A DNA stretch of 37,979 nt from Faecalibacterium sp. (lineage in GTDB: Bacteria; Bacillota; Clostridia; Oscillospirales; Ruminococcaceae). The notes beneath the pieces are model-generated. The model was not told the DNA's origin and searched no databases. It saw nothing but the letters and a program-made list of their open reading frames with translations. The position numbers were made by a program, and so were the translations under genes. The stretch spans positions 1 through 37,979 of the forward strand of contig JBJERT010000027.1 of NCBI GenBank assembly GCA_051882435.1, written 5' to 3'. Every line of letters starts with the position of its first letter. Positions within the stretch are counted from its first letter, which is position 1. This document shows positions 53-37,521 of the stretch, one piece after another.

Positions 53-222
53 TGCGGCGTGTCCCGGGCATCTGCATCGCTCTGGAAAGGGGAGGAAGCC
101 GGATTTTTATACAGGAAATCGGGAAGGGTGTACAAAAAATACAAAGTTTTTTCAAAAATATTCCATTTTTGCCCTGTCTTTTCGTCATAATCGGAAACTT
201 TTCCCAAAAAGGGGCAGAGTGA

Positions 223-2259: not shown

Positions 2260-3107
2260 TGAAAACAAAGCATCTTCGCATTTTTCAGCGCGCCTATGTT
2301 GTGCTGTTCTTTTGCTTCATGTATCTGCCCATCGCGTATATGATCGTGTTCAGCTTCAACCAGAGCAAGGGCTACTCGCTGTTCACCGGCTTTACGCTGA
2401 AGTGGTACGCCAGCCTGTTCACCAACTCCAATATCCTGCATGCGCTGTGGGTGTCGCTGGAGGTGGCGCTGGTCTCAGCGGTCATTGCGACCGTGCTGGG
2501 CACGGCGGCTTCGCTGGGCATCGCGGCGATGGGCCGCAAGAGCCGGCTGCTGGTCACGAACGTCACCTATATCCCGGTCGTCAACCCGGAGATCATCACC
2601 GGTATCTCGCTGATGCTGCTGTTCGTGGCCTATCAGCGCTTTGCCGCCGATGTGTCCTGGCTGCCGGATACTATTATGGGCATCCCCACGCTGCTCATCG
2701 CGCATATTGCGTTCAATGTGCCCTATGTCATCTTCAATGTCAGCCCCAAGCTGCGGCAGCTGGATATCCGCCTCTATGAGGCGGCGCTGGATCTGGGCTG
2801 TGACCCGAAGCAGGCCTTTTTCAAGGTCATTCTGCCGGAGATCAGCCCGGCGATCCTGTCGGCCTTCCTTATCTGCCTGACCTATTCCATCGATGACTTC
2901 ATGATCTCCTACTTCAACTGCGGCACGGTGGAGACGCTGCCCATCGCGATCTATTCCATGACACGAAAGAAGGTCAGCCCGGAGATCTACGCGCTGTCCA
3001 CGATCATGTTCGTGGTCATCCTGACCATCATCCTGGTGTCCAACGCGCTGGAGAGCCGCAGCTATCACCGTGACCAGAAAGCGCTGAGAGGGGAGGCACA
3101 AAAGTGA
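2259..3107 (+). CDS. potC: Spermidine/putrescine ABC transporter permease
   Basis: YLPI..FSFN, FTLKWY, PEIITG, EAALDLG; overlaps potB stop. Confidence 0.92.
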   Translation: MKTKHLRIFQRAYVVLFFCFMYLPIAYMIVFSFNQSKGYSLFTGFTLKWYASLFTNSNILHALWVSLEVALVSAVIATVLGTAASLGIAAMGRKSRLLVTNVTYIPVVNPEIITGISLMLLFVAYQRFAADVSWLPDTIMGIPTLLIAHIAFNVPYVIFNVSPKLRQLDIRLYEAALDLGCDPKQAFFKVILPEISPAILSAFLICLTYSIDDFMISYFNCGTVETLPIAIYSMTRKKVSPEIYALSTIMFVVILTIILVSNALESRSYHRDQKALRGEAQK

Positions 3108-4406: not shown

Positions 4407-5138
4407 ATGCTGTATCAGTATACCGAAACGATGACCGTCCGCAATGCGGATTCGGATTTCCGCGGGGGAATGAAGCCCGGTGCGCTGCTACGCTGTGTGG
4501 AGCAGATCAGCGCTGACCACATCCGTTTGTTCGGCATGGATGACCAATTCTTCAAGGACCGGCAGGCAGCGCTGCTGGTGGGGCGGCAGGCACTGCGTTT
4601 TCTCCGTGTGCCCCGTCGCGCCGAGGAGCTGACACTGACGACCATCGCGGAACGGGCCAAGCGCGGCACACTGAAACGGATCACCGTGCTGTCCGATGCG
4701 GCCGGGCAGGAGGTCGCCCGGGTGGACAGCCGCTGGATCACGGTCGACACCGCAAAGGGGTGCATCGTGCGCGAGCCGAACTGGATGAAGGAGGGCATCT
4801 GCAACGACGATATCCCGGACGAGCTGCCCCAGCAGGTCCACCGCGCGAAAGATTTGACCTTTGCGGGCACATGGAAGGCTCATTATTCTTTGTGCGATAT
4901 CAACGGCCACCTGAACAATGCCTGCTATCTGGATATCGCCTGTGACGCTCTGCCGCCGCAGGTGCTGGAACAGGGGCCGGTGGTGTTTGCTTCCGTCAAA
5001 TACAATCGTGAGGTGCCAAAAGGGGAGAGCATGGAAGTATTCTATGCGCCTTCGGGGGATGGCTGGTATCTCGTGGGCCGCCGCGAGGGGCACAATGCCT
5101 TCGAGTGCTATCTTGAGCTTGGCTGCGGAAAAAACTGA
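4407..5138 (+). CDS. Acyl-ACP thioesterase (FatA/FatB-like, double hotdog)
   Basis: Catalytic-type motif DINGHLNNACY; GGGAGG RBS. Confidence 0.85.
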   Translation: MLYQYTETMTVRNADSDFRGGMKPGALLRCVEQISADHIRLFGMDDQFFKDRQAALLVGRQALRFLRVPRRAEELTLTTIAERAKRGTLKRITVLSDAAGQEVARVDSRWITVDTAKGCIVREPNWMKEGICNDDIPDELPQQVHRAKDLTFAGTWKAHYSLCDINGHLNNACYLDIACDALPPQVLEQGPVVFASVKYNREVPKGESMEVFYAPSGDGWYLVGRREGHNAFECYLELGCGKN

Positions 5139-15640: not shown

Positions 15641-16498
15641 ATGGCTAAAAATAACGCATGCCGACGCCTCCGACGCGGAGGCAAACACAGCCGCCGTACG
15701 TCTCAATGGTTTCGTCCGGTCCTGCGCTGGGGAGCGCTCCTTGTATGGATCGCTCTGCTGGGGTGGTTCTGTATCTGGGCGCTTGGACTGTTTCCGCAGA
15801 GAACACCGGAAAAACAGGAGCAGCCTGCCCGGGAAGAGTTCCGGCCGGAAGTGGGGGAGCCGCCCTACATCATTGCGGTAGATGCCGGTCACGGCGGCAC
15901 AGATCCCGGAGCGATCGGGATCGTAGAAGAGCGACAGATGACGGCACAGACGGCTGAGGCACTCTGCGCTCTGCTTGAAAAAGACCCCAGTTACATCCCG
16001 GTCCACACCCGCGATAGCTATGATGTGACCGCCAAGCCCAGCGAGCGTGCGGAATACGCAAATCGTCAAACGCCGGATCTGCTGCTTTCTATTCATGGAA
16101 ACTCCGCGCCGGAAGGGTCGGAGGCATCCGGCTTCGAATGCTATCCGGCCGTACCGGGGCGTACCTGGCATCAGGAAAGCTATTTCTTTGCGCAGCTCCT
16201 GGCAGAAGGGATGAGCGCGGCTGGGGCTTCGCTGCGCGGAAGCGGCGGGATCCGATACATTTATTATCTGGAAAACGGCGAAAAGAAAATCGTCGAAACA
16301 AACTATGCCGCGATCCGGGAAGAACGCAGCTTTACGATACTGGAAGACGTAACGTGTCCGGCGGTACTGGCGGAACAATGCTTTGTGACAAATGAATCAG
16401 ATGTCGAGCGGTTTGGTACAGAAGAAGGATGTCAGCGCGCTGCGCAGATCTATTACGAAGCGATTTGCAGGTACTTTGGAACGCAGGCGATTTTGTGA
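15641..16498 (+). CDS. N-acetylmuramoyl-L-alanine amidase (Amidase_3), N-terminally membrane anchored
   Basis: VDAGHGGTDPGA, LSIHGN, PAVLAE motifs; N-terminal TM helix. Confidence 0.9.
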   Translation: MAKNNACRRLRRGGKHSRRTSQWFRPVLRWGALLVWIALLGWFCIWALGLFPQRTPEKQEQPAREEFRPEVGEPPYIIAVDAGHGGTDPGAIGIVEERQMTAQTAEALCALLEKDPSYIPVHTRDSYDVTAKPSERAEYANRQTPDLLLSIHGNSAPEGSEASGFECYPAVPGRTWHQESYFFAQLLAEGMSAAGASLRGSGGIRYIYYLENGEKKIVETNYAAIREERSFTILEDVTCPAVLAEQCFVTNESDVERFGTEEGCQRAAQIYYEAICRYFGTQAIL

Positions 16499-16544
16499 CC
16501 GCAGCAGAAAAATAGAGAAGAAGGGAGGTTTGATTTTCCCATAG

Positions 16545-16580
16545 CTATATTTCGTATAATGCAAGTTATACGAAATATAG
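16545..16580. other. Symmetric tyrosine-recombinase-type site (candidate chromosomal dif; loxP-like)
   Basis: Perfect inverted repeat CTATATTTCGTATA-ATGCAAGT-TATACGAAATATAG; 11-6-11 core ATTTCGTATAA-TGCAAG-TTATACGAAAT; located where gene orientation converges. Confidence 0.65.
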
Positions 16581-16691
16581 GGGAGTGAAAAAACCCTTTT
16601 TCCGTTCCTGAGCCTTCCTGACGGCTCGTTTTCGACCCGTCCGCAGGATTCCTGGATCATGAGCGCTTGAATGAATCAAGAATCAAACATC

Positions 16692-16736
16692 AAACAAAAA
16701 CGTCCCGAGCACGACACCCGGGACGTTTTTGTTTTT
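16692..16736. terminator. Bidirectional terminator between convergent blocks
   Basis: AAACAAAAACGTCCCG / CGGGACGTTTTTGTTT. Confidence 0.8.
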
Positions 16737-16752
16737 ATAATTCAGTTTATTT

Positions 16753-18156
16753 TTACTCTTGTGCCTGCGCAAAAGCACTGAATGCACGATATGCCATGTA
16801 CAGGTCCGTCTTATGGATGACCTCGAACGGAGCATGCATCGACAACACCGGAACGCCCAGATCCAGCACTGGGATCCCACGGTTTGCGACATATTTTGAG
16901 ATGGTACCGCCGCCGCCCAGGTCCAGCCGCCCCAGTTCGCCGATCTGCCATGCGATGCCATGATCATCCAGCATACGAGTGATTTTTCCCACCAGCTCGG
17001 CGTTGGCATCATTGGCGGAGCTCTTGCCGCGGCTTCCGGTATACTTAAAGATCGCGACGCCGCGGCCCGCATAGGTGCCGTTCTGTTTTTCAAAGGCGCT
17101 GGCCCAGGTCGGATCATAGGCTGCGGTGACATCGGCTGACAGGCAAATACTGTTCTGGAACGCCACGATATCATCCACACCAGCCGTACGGCAGAGCTGC
17201 TGCATAAAGTGGAACACATACATGCTCTTCATACCAGTCACACCGTCGGAGCCGATCTCTTCTTTATCGGTCAGAACGCAGATCGTGGTAAAAGCCGGAT
17301 CCTCCGCTTCGATCTGCGCCATCAGAGCCGGATATGCGTCCACACGGTCATCATGGCCGTAGGCGCCCACCATCGAACGGTCAAATCCGACATCTTTCGC
17401 TTTGTGCGCAGGCACCAGTTCGATTTCAGCCCGGGTAAAGTCACGTTCGGTGATTCCATATTTTTCGTTCAGGAGCATCAGAAGATTGAGCTTGACGGCC
17501 TCTTTGATCGCTTCATCCTGCACCGCATCGGAGCCAATGAGCAGATTCATTTCTTCTGCTTGGATGCCCTCGCTCAGCTTTCTGTCATTCTGCTCGGCAC
17601 TCAGATGAGGCAAAAGATCCGTGATGCAAAAGACCGGGTCGCCTTCCTCCTCGCCCACACGGATCGTAACACTGCTGCCATCCGCGCGGGTAAATACTCC
17701 ATGGATCGCCAGCGGGATCGTCGCCCACTGGTATTTGCGTACGCCGCCATAGTAATGGGTCTTGAAATAGCCCAAATGCTCAGACTCATATAAGGGATTC
17801 GGACGCAGGTCCAGCCGAGGACAGTCGATATGAGCGATCGTAAGGCGGAACCCTTCCTCAAAGCTGCGTGTGCCGATGGTCGCGGCGATCAGGGATTTGC
17901 CGAACTGGGTCATGTAGACTCTGTCCCCAGGAGCATAAACCTTTTTGGGGTCAAAAAGCTGATATCCTGCGGCTTTGAGCATTTGTACGCTTTCGGCCGT
18001 CACTTCGCGCTCGGTCTTGCCGGCATCCATGTATTTTTTGTAGCCCTCTGCGAAAGCGGCAGTTCTGGACCTGAGCTCCAGGTCCTTGTCAGCCGCATAA
18101 ACGGGCTGATAAAACAGCTTTTCGGCGAGCTGCTGCGCCGGAGTTTTTTCCTTCAT
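16753..18156 (-). CDS. M18 family aminopeptidase
   Basis: AHIDCPRLDL, YYGG..YQW, HDDR, DKEEIGS, SADV, LSMHAP; AGGAG RBS supports ATG at 18156. Confidence 0.92.
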   Translation of the reverse strand: MKEKTPAQQLAEKLFYQPVYAADKDLELRSRTAAFAEGYKKYMDAGKTEREVTAESVQMLKAAGYQLFDPKKVYAPGDRVYMTQFGKSLIAATIGTRSFEEGFRLTIAHIDCPRLDLRPNPLYESEHLGYFKTHYYGGVRKYQWATIPLAIHGVFTRADGSSVTIRVGEEEGDPVFCITDLLPHLSAEQNDRKLSEGIQAEEMNLLIGSDAVQDEAIKEAVKLNLLMLLNEKYGITERDFTRAEIELVPAHKAKDVGFDRSMVGAYGHDDRVDAYPALMAQIEAEDPAFTTICVLTDKEEIGSDGVTGMKSMYVFHFMQQLCRTAGVDDIVAFQNSICLSADVTAAYDPTWASAFEKQNGTYAGRGVAIFKYTGSRGKSSANDANAELVGKITRMLDDHGIAWQIGELGRLDLGGGGTISKYVANRGIPVLDLGVPVLSMHAPFEVIHKTDLYMAYRAFSAFAQAQE

Positions 18157-18202
18157 GTCTAAAAATTCTCCTGTCTTTCCTATTTCCTGAAATATTTCTA
18201 TT

Positions 18203-18856
18203 TCAAACCACAGCCGACGGCATTTCAGTCGTCGGCCTGGTTCTGGCAAATGAATCTAATGATCCCCAGACAAAGGCCGCAGCTCCCGGCGATGCATCCG
18301 CATAAAGGAGCTGGTAAAATCCATAGCATTCCTCAATCTTCTCGACATAATGGTTCATCTGCGTATATGGGAACCCCTGAAGCGTCTGGCCATCGGCAGA
18401 ATGCTCTTTGCTCTCCAGCAGGGCGTCCACTGTCCCCCATCCACTATGATAAGCCGCGGCAGCGGTAGCCACATCTTCGTGATAGCGGTCGAGACACAGC
18501 CGAAAATAGTAGCATCCAAAACGGATGCTCACCTCCGGCTCATACAGATCATCAAACGTCAAGTCCTCCTGCGGCGCGATCTTGCTGCACAGCCAGCGGA
18601 AGGTTTCCTCTGTCATCTGCATCAGCCCCCGGGCACCCATGCTGGAAGTTGCTTCTGGATCAAAGCCGCTTTCAGTACGGATAACGGAATAGACCAGCAG
18701 TGGGTCCAGCTCATAGACCGCAGACCATCGCTCCACGGGATCTGTGTATTTACAAGGGTAAAGCAGCGTTCCAGCCTTGTGCAGGAGCGGCTGCGTATTG
18801 AGGACCAGCAATGCCAGCACCAGCAAAATGATGCTGCTTTTCAAAAGCTTTTTCAA
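18203..18856 (-). CDS. Lytic transglycosylase (SLT domain)
   Basis: IRTESGF catalytic Glu, GARGLMQ, AAYHSG; N-terminal TM helix; TTG start overlaps coaE stop. Confidence 0.9.
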   Translation of the reverse strand: MKKLLKSSIILLVLALLVLNTQPLLHKAGTLLYPCKYTDPVERWSAVYELDPLLVYSVIRTESGFDPEATSSMGARGLMQMTEETFRWLCSKIAPQEDLTFDDLYEPEVSIRFGCYYFRLCLDRYHEDVATAAAAYHSGWGTVDALLESKEHSADGQTLQGFPYTQMNHYVEKIEECYGFYQLLYADASPGAAAFVWGSLDSFARTRPTTEMPSAVV

Positions 18857-20609: not shown

Positions 20610-21692
20610 TCATCCATTCAGTTTTTGCAGTTTTTCTGTTTGCTCACGGGCGGCAAGATGATCTATGATATCATCCAATCCGCCATCCATGATCTTATTC
20701 AAATTATGCAGCGTCAAACCGATCCGATGGTCCGTGCAGCGGTCCTGCGGAAAATTATATGTGCGTATTTTTTCGCTGCGCTCCCCTGTCCCCACCTGAC
20801 CCTGACGATTCGCGTTGATCGCATCCTGCTGTTCCTTTTGTTTTTGGGCCAACAGGCGGCTGCGCAGGATCTCCAGAGCTTTGTCTTTATTCTGGAACTG
20901 GCTGCGCTCGTTCTGACATTCGACGACCATGCCGGTAGGCAGATGTGTTATGCGGATCGCACTGGATGTCTTATTGATATGCTGTCCGCCTGCGCCCGAT
21001 GAACGAAAGGTATCGATGCGCAGGTCCTTCATATCCAGCGCAAAGTCCACTTCCTCTGCCTGCGGCATCACGGCCACCGTGGCAGTAGAGGTATGGATGC
21101 GCCCCTGCGTTTCGGTCTCTGGTACACGCTGGACCCGATGCACACCGCTCTCATACTTGAGCCGGTTATAAGCACCGCTGCCATTTACTGCGAGGATCGC
21201 CTCTTTGACACCCCCCAGCTCGGTCTCATTCAGACTGAGCACTTCCAGTTCCCACCCGCGGCTCTGGCCATACATGGAGTACATCCGCAGCAGGCTGTGG
21301 GCAAACAACGCGGCTTCTTCCCCTCCTGCTCCGCCACGGATCTCCAGAATGACGCTTTTTCCATCATTTACATCTTTGGGCAGCAGTAAAAATTTGAGAT
21401 TATTTTCCAGTTCTTCCAAATCATGACGTTTTTCGCTGATCTCCTGTTGTACCATTTCCTTAAAGTCCGGGTCGAGCGGCTCGGACTCCAGCAAAGCTCT
21501 GGCCTGCGCGAGGTGATCCTGAGCAGTCTGCCAGGCGCGATACGCCCGCACGATCGGTTCAGCATCGCGGTATTCCCGCATCAGGCGGCGGAACAGCGTC
21601 GGGTCGGCTGCAGTCTGGGGCTGGTTGAGGCGCATGGACAGCTCCTCAAAGCGGCGGCAGACAGTTTCCATTTGATCGAACATCTTCGGCAT
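20610..21692 (-). CDS. prfA: Peptide chain release factor 1
   Basis: GGQ motif, RF1-specific PxT (RVPETE), IRTYNFPQ. Confidence 0.95.
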   Translation of the reverse strand: MPKMFDQMETVCRRFEELSMRLNQPQTAADPTLFRRLMREYRDAEPIVRAYRAWQTAQDHLAQARALLESEPLDPDFKEMVQQEISEKRHDLEELENNLKFLLLPKDVNDGKSVILEIRGGAGGEEAALFAHSLLRMYSMYGQSRGWELEVLSLNETELGGVKEAILAVNGSGAYNRLKYESGVHRVQRVPETETQGRIHTSTATVAVMPQAEEVDFALDMKDLRIDTFRSSGAGGQHINKTSSAIRITHLPTGMVVECQNERSQFQNKDKALEILRSRLLAQKQKEQQDAINANRQGQVGTGERSEKIRTYNFPQDRCTDHRIGLTLHNLNKIMDGGLDDIIDHLAAREQTEKLQKLNG

Positions 21693-24975: not shown

Positions 24976-27900
24976 TCATTTTGTTGCAACATTCTCTTTG
25001 CCCAGCAGCCGCTCCAGCTCCTGGAACAGCAGCGGATGGCCCGAAGCATACAGCCTGCGGGGCGCGGCCAGCTTCTGCCGGGTATCCTGCAAATAGAGGA
25101 TGACCGGGATGCTGCCGTCAAAGATTTCCAGCAGGTTGATCACTTTGGCATACTGTGGACTGTTCCGGGACGGCAGACGGAGATAGATCCGCTGGGTTGC
25201 CTCCCGCAGCGGGTCGGGCCGGCCGGACTGCGGGGCAGCCGGGTCGTAGCGGTCCACCGGGATGATGCTCTCCGCCATCAGCTTGGACGGCTCATCCTCC
25301 CGCACGGACAGCCGCCCGTCGATGACCACGACGGCGTTTTCCTGAAGGGCATCCCGGAAATTTTCCAGCACCCGCGGGAACACGATCACTTCCATGGTGC
25401 CGGTCAGATCTTCGATGCTGGTAAACGCCATCAGGCTGTTGGATTTGGTCGTCATCATGCGGCTTTTGACTACGGTGCAGACCACCCTCACCCGGCTGTT
25501 ATCCAGTTTGTGGCTTTCCTCGCCGGTCAGGTCTTTGATGGTATGGCTGCCAAAACGCCGGATCTGCTCCCGGTAAGCGTCCAGCGGGTGGCCGGACAGG
25601 TACAACCCGCTGACCTCCTTTTCCTGCTGGAGCAGCTCGGCCGGGGTATACTCTGGGACGGGGCGCACCTCATAATTGTCCTCCCCGCTCCCCTGCTCTG
25701 TTCCGCCCATGACCGAGAACAGGTCCAACTGGCCGTCCAGGTTGCGTCGCACATCGCTTTCCACGCTTTTCAGGATGCCTTCCACAGCCTCTACCAGGCT
25801 GCGGCGGTTGACGCCCATACAGTCGAACGCGCCTGCTTTTATCAGGCTCTCGACGGCGCGGCGATTCATTTCGTTGCCATACATCCGCTTACAGAAGTCG
25901 TAGAGGCTGGCGTAAGGGCGTTCCTGCCTCTGCTGCACCGCCCGCTCGATAAGGTTGCGGCCCACGTTTTTTACTGCGTTCAGGCCAAAGCGTATCTGCC
26001 CCTGCGCATCCACGGTAAAGCCGCCGCCCGAGACATTGATATCCGGCGGCAGGACCTTGATGCCCAGCCGGGCGCACTCGCTGGAATATTCGATGACCTT
26101 GTCCGTGTTGTCCAGCACGCTGGTCAGCAGCGCAGCCATGAACTCGCTGGGATAGTGGCACTTGAGATAGGCCGTCTGGAACGCCACATAAGCGTAGCAG
26201 GCGGCGTGGCTTTTATTGAACGCATAGGACGCGAAGCTGGACATCTCGTCATAGATCTCATTCGCAACCTTTTCCGGGATGCCGTTGGCAACGCAGCCGG
26301 GGCACTCATGGCCCGGCTCGGTGCTGCCGTGGACAAAGTGCTCCCGTTCGGCCTCCATGACGGCATGCTTTTTTTTGCTCATGGCCCGGCGCACGTTGTC
26401 CGCCTGGCCGAAGGAAAAGCCCGCCAGCTCCCGGAAGATCTGCATGACCTGCTCCTGATAAAGGATACAGCCGTTGGTCACATCCAGGATATGCGCCAGC
26501 TGCGGCGTTTTATACTGGATCTTGTCCGGCTCATGACGGTTGCGCAGGTAGGTCGGGATGGAGTCCATCGGGCCGGGACGGTAAAGGCTGATCAGCGCGA
26601 TGATATCTTCCAGATCCTTTGGCTGCAGGCCCACCAGGAGCTGCTTCATGCCGGAGGATTCCAGCTGGAACACGCCTTCCGTCTCTCCCTGACTGAGCAT
26701 CCGATAGGTAGCGGCGTCGTCATAGTCCAGCGTCTCGATGGAAAAATCCGGCACCCTTTTCCGAATGGCCGTTTCCGCGTCCCGGATGACCGTGAGGGTG
26801 CGCAGACCGAGAAAGTCCATTTTGAGCAGGCCAAGTTCCTCGATCTCGGTCATATTGAACTGCGTTACGGGCAGGCCGTCGTTGGTGGCAAGAGGCAGGT
26901 ATTCATCGGTCGGCTCGGGGGTGATGACCACGCCCGCCGCATGGGTGGAGGCATGGCGGGGCATCCCCTCCACCTTGGCCGCAGTGTCGAGCAGCTCTTT
27001 GACCTGGGGATCCGTGTCGTATAGGTGCTTTAACTCGGTGGAGACCTCCAATGCGCGCTTCAGAGTCATTTTCAGCTCCATCGGGACCAGCTTGGCCACA
27101 ACATCCACGCTCTGATACGGCAGCCCCATCACGCGGCCCACGTCGCGGATGGCGTTGCGCGCGGCCATCGTTCCGAACGTGACGATCTGCGCCACATGGT
27201 CTGCGCCGTATTTTCGGTTCACATAGTCGATGACCTCCTGTCGGCGTTCGTAGCAGAAATCTACGTCGAAGTCCGGCATGCTGACGCGCTCCGGGTTCAG
27301 GAAGCGCTCGAAGATCAGGTGATATCGGATGGGGTCGATATCGGTGATCCCGACGCAGTAGGCTGCGATGCTGCCCGCACCCGAGCCGCGGCCCGGCCCC
27401 ACCGGGATCCCCTGGCTTTTGGCGTAGTTGATATAATCGAACACGATGAGATAATAGTTGGTATAGCCCATCGTTTTGATGACGCCGATCTCGTAGCGCA
27501 GACGCTCGCGGTTCGCCTCCGGCACATCTGCGCCATAACGCCGCTCCAGTCCCTCCCAGCAGAGCTTCTCAAAGTATTCCTGATTGTCCATGCCGCCGGG
27601 GGCCTTGTAATAAGGGATCTTGGTATGCCCAAAGTCAAAATCGAAATTGCACTGTTCCGCAATCTTTGCCGTGTTAGCACAGGCTTCCGGTACGATGGAG
27701 AACAGATCATACATCTCATCGGTCGTTTTGAGATAGAACTCGTCTGTCTGGAACTCCATTTTGTCCGCGTCCTGGATGGTCTTGCCCGTCTGGATGCACA
27801 GCAGAATGCTCTGCATTTTGGCGTCATCCTTGCGCAGATAATGCGCGTCGTTGGTGGCGGCCATGGGGATGCCGGTCTCCCGCGCCAGCTTGATCAGCTG

Positions 27901-36538: not shown

Positions 36539-37521
36539 AAATCAAACAGCAGCCTGACGTCTGTCCGTACCTCCGGGCAGGCGTTTTTTGCTGGTTCCAG
36601 AGAGTCGGTGCGGATGTTGCGCAGAGCTTTCGCAGCTCCCAGACCGGCAAGGTCTATGCCTCTGTCCCAGAATGCTCGTACCGTCCGGGCACAGAGCTGC
36701 TCCAGCGCCTCGCACTGCACTGCATCCGGCGGCTGCGCACCTGCGGCACTCTGACAATCCAGTTCGATCGTGAAGGAACCGTCTGCTTCCGGCTGCACGG
36801 CACGACCGCGGCAGCGCAGCGTGACCCGGCGGCCATCCAGCCAAAAGGTATACGTCTCCCCTGCCCCTGCCAGAAGCCGGGCCGCAGAGGTCTGCGCAGC
36901 ATCCAGCAAAAGCTCACCGGAAGCAGAGAGGAACACGCCCTCCTCTGCCGGAGCGGCATCTTCCTCGGTCAGCACGAGCCGCGGCATGAGACAGCCTGCC
37001 CGACGGTCATACAAATGCGGCGCAGCGGCGGCGCTGTTTTTGACGCATTGCAGCAGTGCCTCCGGCAATGCGTCCACCTCCTCGCTCTGCTCCGAAAGTT
37101 CGGAACAGCTGAAGCCGCAGCTCAGCACCCGTGCCGAGATCCGGCCGCACTGCTGCGCAAGGACGAGTTGTTCATACTCATCCAGCAGGTCCATTCTGGC
37201 TCCCTGCGCCAGCAAAAGGTAATCGCACAGGCGGTAGTTTGCTTTCTGGGGCAGTGCCTTTTCGGCTGCGGCCAGAGCTTTGGCCAGCGTTTCGTCCTCC
37301 GCGGCAGCAAAACGCACTTCGGCCACTGCCTCGGAGGAATCCGCTGACGCCTCCGGCGCCTGATAGATCAGGCCCGCCGTCCAGCCCTGCGGGCTGCGCT
37401 CCAGCATCACTGCGCGGATCATGCTCTGCTCGGTGGTCTCGCAGCGCAGAAAAAGCAGGCACCAGATCAGCAAAGCTCCCGTCCCGATCCTCCGGGCACG
37501 TCCCGACCTGCGGCGGCTCAT
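36535..37521 (-). CDS. Divergent Ger(x)C-like spore germination protein
   Basis: Basic N-terminus plus hydrophobic stretch ending in Cys, D.AGLG near the C-terminus; ATGA overlap with the upstream GerAB-like gene. Confidence 0.5.
   Translation of the reverse strand: MSRRRSGRARRIGTGALLIWCLLFLRCETTEQSMIRAVMLERSPQGWTAGLIYQAPEASADSSEAVAEVRFAAAEDETLAKALAAAEKALPQKANYRLCDYLLLAQGARMDLLDEYEQLVLAQQCGRISARVLSCGFSCSELSEQSEEVDALPEALLQCVKNSAAAAPHLYDRRAGCLMPRLVLTEEDAAPAEEGVFLSASGELLLDAAQTSAARLLAGAGETYTFWLDGRRVTLRCRGRAVQPEADGSFTIELDCQSAAGAQPPDAVQCEALEQLCARTVRAFWDRGIDLAGLGAAKALRNIRTDSLEPAKNACPEVRTDVRLLFDF

What the first reader, a model, noticed from the sequence alone, without database searches (positions are those of the whole stretch)
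16545..16580. Perfectly symmetric loxP/dif-like recombination site: candidate chromosomal dif of a single-recombinase system
Seen: an AT-rich perfect inverted repeat, CTATATTTCGTATA-ATGCAAGT-TATACGAAATATAG, in a GC-rich genome. It has no terminator character, and a separate terminator lies at 16692. Read as 11-6-11 it is ATTTCGTATAA-TGCAAG-TTATACGAAAT, the Xer dif geometry. Known: ATTTCGTATAA is a XerC-type arm (as in Acinetobacter pdif sites), but canonical dif pairs it with a different XerD arm (TTATGTTAAAT). Read as 13-8-13 it matches phage P1 loxP at 23/34 positions by my manual alignment, including TTCGTATA and TATACGAA and an asymmetric 8-bp spacer beginning ATG. Inference: two identical arms suggest one homotetrameric, Cre-like or XerS/XerH/XerA-style recombinase, encoded elsewhere, resolving chromosome dimers. 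I do not know of a characterised dif of this form in this group.
Basis: partly seen in the sequence, partly recalled or inferred. Interest (0 to 1): 0.9.

Follow-up and report, generated by a model that had tools for sequence, protein, structure and literature searches.

The report
Faecalibacterium terminus dif, lone Xer recombinase
This palindrome sits once per chromosome where the two replication arms meet in the gut bacterium Faecalibacterium, and is likely the spot where a single recombinase (not the usual XerC/XerD pair, and not Cre) separates fused sister chromosomes, a one-enzyme system that recurs across Clostridia and that I found in none of the papers searched.

Summary
In detail: a perfect 15-6-15 palindrome, single-copy in the assembly, 7 bp from the window's GC-skew peak, between convergent genes. 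It occurs in 33 of 36 genomes of the genus (Faecalibacterium) and lies opposite dnaA in 4 of 4 single-contig genomes. None of 41 good genus genomes has XerC or XerD over cut-off. Each has one conserved Xer-type recombinase, within about 3 kb of the site in 30 of 33 relatives, but not on this contig. Its relatives across Clostridia often carry a palindromic 11-6-11 site just upstream (51 of 103 loci). The protein groups apart from XerC/D and XerS. The loxP likeness (23/34) is real but derived: arms are perfect in only 5 of 29 genus loci, and Cre is not hit. A heptamer, AGGGGAG, flips strand at the site even inside lagging-strand genes (19:1), a candidate FtsK guide (KOPS); one outward-facing copy abuts the right arm in 28 of 29 loci. 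Verdict: a likely single-recombinase dif, new variant of a known kind; recombination is untested.

The parts
16545..16580 (.). Perfect 15-6-15 palindrome holding the predicted dif site
   Evidence: window skew maximum at 16587
16549..16559 (+). Left 11-bp arm ATTTCGTATAA, predicted recombinase half-site; the better conserved arm in the genus
   Evidence: column counts over 29 genus loci
16560..16565 (+). Asymmetric 6-bp centre TGCAAG, predicted crossover region (genus consensus TGCACG)
   Evidence: cut positions inferred from Xer geometry, not tested
16566..16576 (+). Right 11-bp arm TTATACGAAAT, predicted half-site; TTATRYGAAAN in most relatives
16579..16593 (+). Conserved one-sided extension AGGGGAG-TGAAAAAA: a copy of the replichore-polarised heptamer, pointing away from the site
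   Evidence: 28 of 29 genus loci; G-run on one side in 39 of 48 family-type sites
88..94 (+). AGGGGAG pointing to the site (left replichore), candidate KOPS
3089..3095 (+). AGGGGAG pointing to the site (left replichore), candidate KOPS
5021..5027 (+). AGGGGAG pointing to the site (left replichore), candidate KOPS
20781..20787 (-). AGGGGAG pointing to the site (right replichore), candidate KOPS
25688..25694 (-). AGGGGAG pointing to the site (right replichore), candidate KOPS
36856..36862 (-). AGGGGAG pointing to the site (right replichore), candidate KOPS
15641..16498 (+). Left neighbour: N-acetylmuramoyl-L-alanine amidase-like gene, the usual neighbour in the genus (context)
16692..16734 (.). 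Separate intrinsic terminator between the convergent genes (context)
16753..18249 (-). Right neighbour: aminopeptidase gene, where relatives have the xer gene (context)

Best explanation
[quoted passage not shown] Shown: position, copy number, conservation, no XerC or XerD over cut-off in the genus, one conserved recombinase that is linked to the site in relatives and has an intact catalytic set, an FtsK gamma domain in the genome, and a polarised heptamer that flips strand at the site. Inferred: one subunit binds each 11-bp arm; two sites pair; strands are exchanged across the 6-bp centre through a Holliday junction; septal FtsK, guided by AGGGGAG, delivers the two sites and licenses the reaction. 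The history is also inferred. The ancestral module had a palindromic site just upstream of the gene. In most Faecalibacterium the arms changed from CGCTAAA to CGTATAA, the protein evolved faster and the site came to lie downstream of the gene. In this genome a rearrangement put site and gene at least 16 kb apart.
For: POSITION: window skew peak 16587 and gene-strand flip. The site is 48-53% of the chromosome from dnaA in G013, G020, G027, G028 and 841 bp from the skew peak of 400 kb in G013. The AGGGGAG polarity switch falls within 1.4 kb around the site in G013 and within 1 kb beside it in G020. CONSERVATION: 33 of 36 genus genomes, reversed-pattern control 0 of 36. ONE ENZYME: best TIGR02225 score 171-207 bits in 41 of 41 genomes (cut-off 329.6; one hit partial), and 6 of them have no second hit at E 1e-20. 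True XerC and XerD controls score 327-409 bits on the same model. LINKAGE: gene within about 3 kb in 30 of 33 relatives, with 79-90% identity to the G000 protein in the main lineage and 41-46% in two basal genomes. CATALYSIS: R184, K208, H279, R282, H306, Y315 invariant in 33 of 33. BREADTH: orthologue in 111 of 120 family genomes, XerD-like hit in 4 of 120. An 11-6-11 repeat with 10 or more of 11 pairs lies within 350 bp upstream in 51 of 103 loci, against 6 downstream and 1 inside the gene. Arm changes between lineages are mirrored on both arms. The gene is opposite dnaA in 5 of 5 further genomes. TREES: 37 rows form one side of a branch (SH-aLRT 96-98), apart from 24 XerC/D rows and 2 XerS rows. 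FtsK gamma in G000.
Against: No binding or recombination was tested. In G000 the recombinase gene is cut by a contig end at 229 aa, so its catalytic end is not seen, and the assembly is 80% complete. In G020 the 400-kb GC-skew maximum is 123 kb from the site, which is only a local peak; in G163 it is 15 kb away. 52 of 103 loci lack a strong upstream repeat within 350 bp. Most Faecalibacterium right arms are imperfect and drift toward TTATG, as XerD arms do. 35 of 41 genus genomes carry other tyrosine recombinases at E 1e-20. Three genomes have a second, diverged site 48-50 kb away. Three genomes from two other families hold this recombinase type together with further Xer hits, with no strong (10 of 11) upstream palindrome; in G513 the other two are XerC and XerD. 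Both trees are quick searches without bootstrap. The heptamer resembles a ribosome-binding site and could be polarised for a reason other than FtsK.
Confidence: 0.82

Rival explanations
1. It is a dif site read by a heterotetramer: this recombinase plus a second, diverged Xer-like partner.
For: Arms are unequal in 24 of 29 genus loci. Many genomes have a second hit at 140-173 bits. 4 of 120 family genomes keep a XerD-like gene, 3 of them on the same contig as this recombinase.
Against: Six high-quality genus genomes have only one hit at E 1e-20. Second hits are patchy; the 327-aa one lies among genes that look like type I restriction-modification (that label is my recall from the sequences). 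Family arms are mostly perfect mirrors. XerS and XerH also act alone on unequal arms.
Confidence: 0.05
2. It is only an operator: the recombinase or a transcription factor binds it to regulate transcription, and no strand exchange occurs.
For: In most of the family it sits 20-200 bp upstream of the recombinase gene, and each arm overlaps a TATAAT-like hexamer. Autoregulation was suggested for difSL (PMC1914069).
Against: Here it lies between convergent gene ends with no promoter match. It stayed at the replichore junction while the gene moved away. It is single-copy.
Confidence: 0.05
3. It is a loxP-type site of a Cre-like, phage-derived recombinase.
For: 23 of 34 identity to loxP, 9 of 13 in each arm. 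A distant relative's site (L212) also has a loxP-like right arm.
Against: Cre is not among the 16 solved-structure hits of the profile. Symmetry runs inward to a 6-bp centre, not 8. The outer loxP bases are not conserved. Family arms are further from loxP. The window holds housekeeping genes. P1 was not among the 17 phage hits.
Confidence: 0.03
4. It is an attachment scar of a mobile element, or an RNA hairpin, with no role in segregation.
For: Strong predicted hairpin. Flanking genes vary in some relatives. Some phage contigs carry similar 26-mers.
Against: Fixed at the junction in genomes with different neighbours. The centre is conserved in sequence. The three best phage-collection hits are chromosomal fragments holding site, xer and radA. 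A separate terminator serves the convergent genes.
Confidence: 0.05

Closest known systems
XerS/difSL of streptococci and lactococci (PMC1914069; PMC5357621 section 12)
   Same: One recombinase, no XerC/D, site at the skew switch, site directly upstream of the gene in the ancestral arrangement, FtsK present.
   Different: Protein scores 139-148 bits on the XerS model (cut-off 267; a true XerS scores 561) and lies on a separate branch. The site is a 28-bp 11-6-11 repeat, not the 31-bp unequal difSL. In main-line Faecalibacterium the site is downstream of the gene, and here it is unlinked.
XerL/dif of Legionellales (PMC9765430)
   Same: Single recombinase, uninterrupted inverted-repeat arms (10-12 bp), site and gene can be far apart.
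   Different: Different phylum; XerL was not compared by sequence here. Linkage of site and gene is the rule in this clostridial group.
XerH/difH of Helicobacter and Campylobacter (PMC5357621 section 13)
   Same: Single recombinase near its site.
   Different: Profile hits XerH at E 2e-25, far weaker than XerD (6e-43) or XerA (3e-40). Arm sequences differ.
XerA/dif of archaea (PMC5357621 section 14)
   Same: Single recombinase, 11-6-11 site, gene linked or unlinked.
   Different: Below the XerA model cut-off (185-194 vs 220 bits). XerA is described as FtsK-independent, whereas this genome has FtsK gamma and a polarised purine motif.
XerC/XerD-dif of Bacillota (PMC3025954 supplement)
   Same: 28-bp 11-6-11 geometry, TAA and TTA inner bases, terminus position; the left arm resembles listed XerC arms.
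   Different: No XerC or XerD over cut-off in 41 genus genomes. No canonical pattern at the terminus of 5 complete genomes. Arms are mirror images rather than a C arm and a D arm.
Cre/loxP of phage P1
   Same: Symmetric arms, 23 of 34 identical bases, one protein (inferred here).
   Different: 6-bp rather than 8-bp asymmetric centre; protein is Xer-like with no Cre hit; chromosomal; the likeness is recent within one genus.

Membership tests
Chromosomal dif site (any Xer system) | About 28-31 bp inverted repeat with a short centre, non-coding, A+T-rich | tested here: met
Chromosomal dif site (any Xer system) | One copy per chromosome | tested here: met
   One in G000 and in 30 of 33 relatives with a match, counting G016's two contig-end copies as one; 3 have a second diverged site
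Chromosomal dif site (any Xer system) | At the replichore junction, opposite oriC | tested here: met
   48-53% from dnaA in 4 of 4 single-contig genus genomes; skew or motif switch at the site in G000, G013, G020, G163, G570; GC skew alone is off by 123 kb in G020
Chromosomal dif site (any Xer system) | Bound and recombined by a Xer recombinase; needed for dimer resolution | not testable with these tools
   Needs binding, resolution and deletion experiments
XerC/XerD-dif | Both xerC and xerD genes in the genome | tested here: not met
   0 of 42 genus genomes over the TIGR02225 cut-off, best 207 bits; controls 327-409 bits
XerC/XerD-dif | Conserved XerD arm of the TTATGT-AA type at the terminus | tested here: not met
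   Pattern built from the Clostridia rows: 1 hit in 5 complete genomes, about 200 kb from dnaA
Single-recombinase Xer/dif systems (XerS, XerH, XerA, XerL as a kind) | One conserved Xer-type tyrosine recombinase with the R-K-H-R-H-Y set | tested here: met
   catalytic end not visible in G000 itself because of the contig end
Single-recombinase Xer/dif systems (XerS, XerH, XerA, XerL as a kind) | Site linked to the gene (XerS, XerH; not XerL) | tested here: met
   30 of 33 genus relatives; 51 of 103 wider loci; not linked in G000
Single-recombinase Xer/dif systems (XerS, XerH, XerA, XerL as a kind) | The single protein is necessary and sufficient | not testable with these tools
   Bench test
XerS/difSL proper | Protein over the XerS family cut-off and in the XerS clade | tested here: not met
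   139-148 bits vs 267; separate branch
XerS/difSL proper | 31-bp site with arms of unequal length | tested here: not met
XerH/difH proper | XerH orthologue and difH arms | tested here: inconclusive
   Only a profile E-value (2e-25); XerH was not in the tree; arms differ from those quoted
Cre/loxP | Cre-family recombinase | tested here: not met
   The linked protein's profile does not hit Cre at E 0.01; genomes were not searched with a Cre model
Cre/loxP | 13-8-13 site with conserved outer arm bases | tested here: not met
   6-bp asymmetric centre; positions outside the 11-bp arms vary on the left; 23 of 34
KOPS/SRS-type FtsK guide motif (AGGGGAG) | Leading-strand skew that switches at dif and does not depend on gene strand | tested here: met
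   122:21 over 800 kb; 19:1 inside lagging-strand genes, control AGGAGG 41:53; most biased of 21 permutations in G000, 86:18; switch at the site. Whole genomes were not scanned.
KOPS/SRS-type FtsK guide motif (AGGGGAG) | Bound by the FtsK gamma domain and orients translocation | not testable with these tools
   Needs the assays of PMC3384302

The most novel reading that the evidence does not exclude
Ruminococcaceae use an undescribed, independent one-enzyme Xer system. Its symmetric dif gets its asymmetry from outside: AGGGGAG is the FtsK guide motif of these bacteria, and one copy fixed 2 bp beyond the right arm, pointing away, sets the side from which FtsK meets the tetramer and the order of strand exchange. 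In Faecalibacterium, enzyme and site co-evolved until the site converged on loxP.
Probability: 0.25. Interest if true: 0.75.

Novelty: new variant of a known kind. Interest (0 to 1): 0.5.

Why it matters
How dominant gut Clostridia resolve chromosome dimers is not settled in the papers I could search. The large 2011 dif survey had 19 Clostridia rows, none from this family, and 6 of the 19 were unpredicted or more than 130 degrees from the skew shift. This gives a 28-bp site, one enzyme and a candidate FtsK guide motif that can be tested in E. coli. It would add a further single-recombinase Xer lineage and a way to ask how a homotetramer on a symmetric site is kept under division control. It marks the terminus in fragmented assemblies, and offers a candidate recA-independent landing site in Faecalibacterium. 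It also flags a loxP-like site to check before Cre is used in this genus.

Tried and rejected
(1) Phage and plasmid mimics of the site (integrating elements): the three best phage-collection hits are chromosomal fragments. Site plus extension: 0 viral contigs. A looser pattern gave 13 contigs with no orthologue of this recombinase, only two weak integrase hits. Plasmid hits were weak, 6 of 7 in Acinetobacter. So the phage use reported in earlier scan notes was not confirmed for this genus. (2) Predicted complex of the recombinase C-terminal part with FtsK gamma: no answer, score 0.00; not used as evidence. (3) The extension as a ribosome-binding site: rejected, because no gene follows it in main-line Faecalibacterium and it faces away from the gene in 7 family loci. 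(4) B. subtilis SRS and E. coli KOPS as the guide motif: skewed, but not independent of gene strand (SRS 3:3 in lagging-strand genes) or weak in leading-strand genes (GGGNAGGG 51:40). (5) Misassembly of the site-aminopeptidase junction: overlapping contigs from other studies tile across it, though no single contig spans the whole 2 kb. (6) Two searches for XerS among genome handles found none over cut-off; it was obtained from two viral-collection contigs. (7) A second site near hprK on contig C27: none found. (8) The careful tree did not finish; both trees are quick searches (with 77 rows; without 3 long rows). (10) Ten paper searches gave no description of this system.

Full report
OBSERVATION. 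The 36-mer is at 16545-16580 and is a perfect 15-6-15 inverted repeat. It is unique in the assembly and absent from 100 window shuffles. It lies between a plus-strand block (phoH, ybeY, era, recO, mutS2, amidase) and a minus-strand block (aminopeptidase, coaE, prfA, dnaE). The cumulative GC skew of the window peaks at 16587. A separate terminator lies at 16692-16734. The match to loxP is 23 of 34.

GENUS. The two arms with up to 3 mismatches occur in 33 of 36 same-genus genomes and 1 of 24 genomes of other families; the reversed pattern gave 0 hits in the genus. Record titles name the genus as Faecalibacterium. In four single-contig genomes the site is 53, 49, 49 and 48% of the chromosome from dnaA. 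The arms are perfect mirrors in only 5 of the 29 loci fetched; the usual form is WTTTCGTATAA-TGCACG-TTATRYGAAAN. So perfect symmetry is one state of a slightly variable site.

RECOMBINASE. G000 has one PF00589 hit, after radA at the end of contig C175, cut at 229 aa. In relatives its orthologue is the best tyrosine-recombinase hit and lies next to the site. Of 33 relatives with a match, 30 have gene and site within about 3 kb (28 with the site downstream, 2 upstream). Two have the site near a contig end (G004, G029), and one has only a diverged site on a 3.4-kb contig (G015). In G000 the aminopeptidase block stands where xer and radA usually are. Contigs from four studies tile this junction, though none spans the whole stretch. 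No genus genome reaches the XerD cut-off: best scores are 171-207 bits in 41 of 41 (one partial), and six have no second hit at E 1e-20. Real XerC and XerD score 327-409 on that model. The protein is also below the XerC, XerS and XerA cut-offs. Databases call it tyrosine-type recombinase, XerC or XerD, inconsistently. The six catalytic residues are invariant in 33 of 33 aligned proteins (residue pattern).

BREADTH. An orthologue is present in 111 of 120 family genomes, one genus each, nearly always once; a XerD-like gene is present in 4 of 120. A search blind to sequence found an 11-6-11 repeat with 10 or more pairs within 350 bp upstream in 51 of 103 loci (of 110 fetched; 7 had too little flank), against 6 downstream and 1 inside the gene. 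The commonest arm is ATTTCGCTAAA (24), then ATTATACAAAA (9). Changes between lineages are mirrored on both arms, as expected if one protein reads both. Spacers of 4, 8 and 10 score similarly there, so the 6-bp centre rests on this genus, where symmetry stops at 6 bp, and on Xer precedent. Across the class the family pattern hit 22 of 301 genomes (reversed control 12); 18 of the 22 loci fetched lie just upstream of this gene. In a phylum draw of 131 genomes, the five with scores over 400 bits had a single match, while most others had two. Three genomes hold this type together with further Xer hits and no strong palindrome. The gene is opposite dnaA in G133, G163, G180, G570, G596. The skew peak is 1.8 kb from the site in G570 and 15 kb in G163.

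TREE. In two quick trees the 37 rows of this type form one side of a branch (SH-aLRT 96 and 98; three ungrouped rows fall inside in the second). The 24 XerC/D rows form another (90 and 99), and XerS sits on a long separate branch whose place is unsure. Main-line Faecalibacterium proteins are on a long branch (0.58-0.73). The basal genomes keep the site upstream, with intermediate arms: ATTTCGCTTAA/TTAAGCGAAAT in G069, ATTTCGTATAA/TTAAGCGAAAT in G002, G017, G084. This series makes the loxP likeness a recent convergence (inference). The profile hits XerD, XerA and XerH structures but not Cre.

POLARISED HEPTAMER. In 800 kb around the site in G013 and G020, AGGGGAG is 122:21 on the leading strand, and related octamers top the skew list. 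Inside lagging-strand genes it is still 19:1, while AGGAGG is 41:53 (my own rough gene calls). It is the most strand-biased of 21 permutations in G000 (86:18). Its polarity switches within about 1 kb of the site in G013 and G020, even though GC skew in G020 peaks 123 kb away; in G163 the same holds. On contig C27 all 3 copies to the left and all 4 to the right point to the site. This meets the sequence criteria for KOPS in PMC3384302; binding is untested. One copy, or AGGGAAG, lies 2 bp beyond the right arm in 28 of 29 genus loci, pointing away, usually followed by YGAAAA. Against a strong role: a single non-permissive KOPS had no effect in E. coli assays. G000 encodes an FtsK gamma domain.

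MECHANISM. Most likely (0.82): a homotetramer pairs two copies of the site on a chromosome dimer and exchanges strands across the 6-bp centre, with FtsK bringing the sites together. Position, copy number, gene content and polarity are shown; binding, catalysis and FtsK control are inferred from XerS, XerH and XerL.

LITERATURE. Seen: PMC3025954 (passages, supplement rows); PMC5357621 (outline, sections 12-14, passages); PMC1914069 (passages, section 7); PMC9765430 (passages); PMC8138268 (passages); PMC3384302 (passages); PMC10591718 (passages, for loxP); one 2026 preprint (one reference line). Ten searches found no description for Faecalibacterium, Ruminococcaceae or Clostridia. Subscription papers, figures and most supplements (for example the datasets of PMC8138268 and PMC3384302) were not seen and could hold it. 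Earlier notes of this scan report the same kind of module in at least 26 other genomes; look-ups for this genus, this DNA, this protein and the heptamer returned nothing.

VERDICT. A real feature and a likely dif of a one-enzyme Xer system; new variant of a known kind; interest 0.5.

Noticed in passing
G020:C1:1422156, G028:C1:1885352, G023:C2:129199 (L041-L043); G015:C110:1497 (L092): A second, diverged dif-like 28-mer (left arm ATTTCGTGTAA, variable centre, no G-run) 48-50 kb from the main site, between a DUF4363 gene and nrdR in three genomes; no match in the 400 kb of G013 or in G000. Unexplained.
   Followed up: partly
L305:1691, L308:822, L314:1217: Three related viral contigs (81-99% alike) carry the same dif-like 26-mer with centre TAGGTA, the reverse complement of the centre in G017, upstream of what look like scaffold and capsid genes (my recall; no Pfam hit). 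No recombinase in the stretch.
   Followed up: partly
L205, L206, L207 (G513, G563, G582): This recombinase type (343-350 bits) in genomes with further Xer hits (XerC and XerD in G513), with no strong palindrome upstream; role unknown.
   Followed up: partly
L212 (G521), L213, L215, L221, L222, L225: More distant Xer-like genes in other Bacillota families also have 11-6-11 palindromes upstream; L212's right arm reads TTATACGAAGT, close to loxP.
   Followed up: no
L106 (G276): Two perfect 11-6-11 palindromes flank the recombinase gene, one upstream and one just after its end, with different arms.
   Followed up: no
L114, L145, L191, L198 genomes by handle: G114, G145, G191, G198: Four of 120 family genomes keep a XerD-like gene; in G114 and G191 it lies about 2 kb from the lone-type recombinase. 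Cited by genome handle; these regions were not fetched.
   Followed up: no
window 16505-16540 and 16590-16605: Purine runs point toward the site from both sides (GAAGAAGGGAGG on the left, reverse of CCCTTTTTCC on the right), conserved in the genus.
   Followed up: no
L035:7504-7700 and orthologues: Main-line Faecalibacterium recombinases carry an acidic, variable C-terminal tail of about 60 aa beyond the conserved domain.
   Followed up: no
G020:C1:1192252-1592251: GC skew has two peaks and is irregular, while AGGGGAG polarity switches once, at the site.
   Followed up: partly
PDB chain 9i5v_14: A 401-aa chain named RaiA matches the Xer profile at E 9e-42 over residues 62-305, perhaps a fused or mis-bounded sequence.
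   Followed up: no
L298, L299, L300: Three public records labelled 'Bacteriophage sp.' hold the site with xer and radA and look like Faecalibacterium chromosome fragments.
   Followed up: yes
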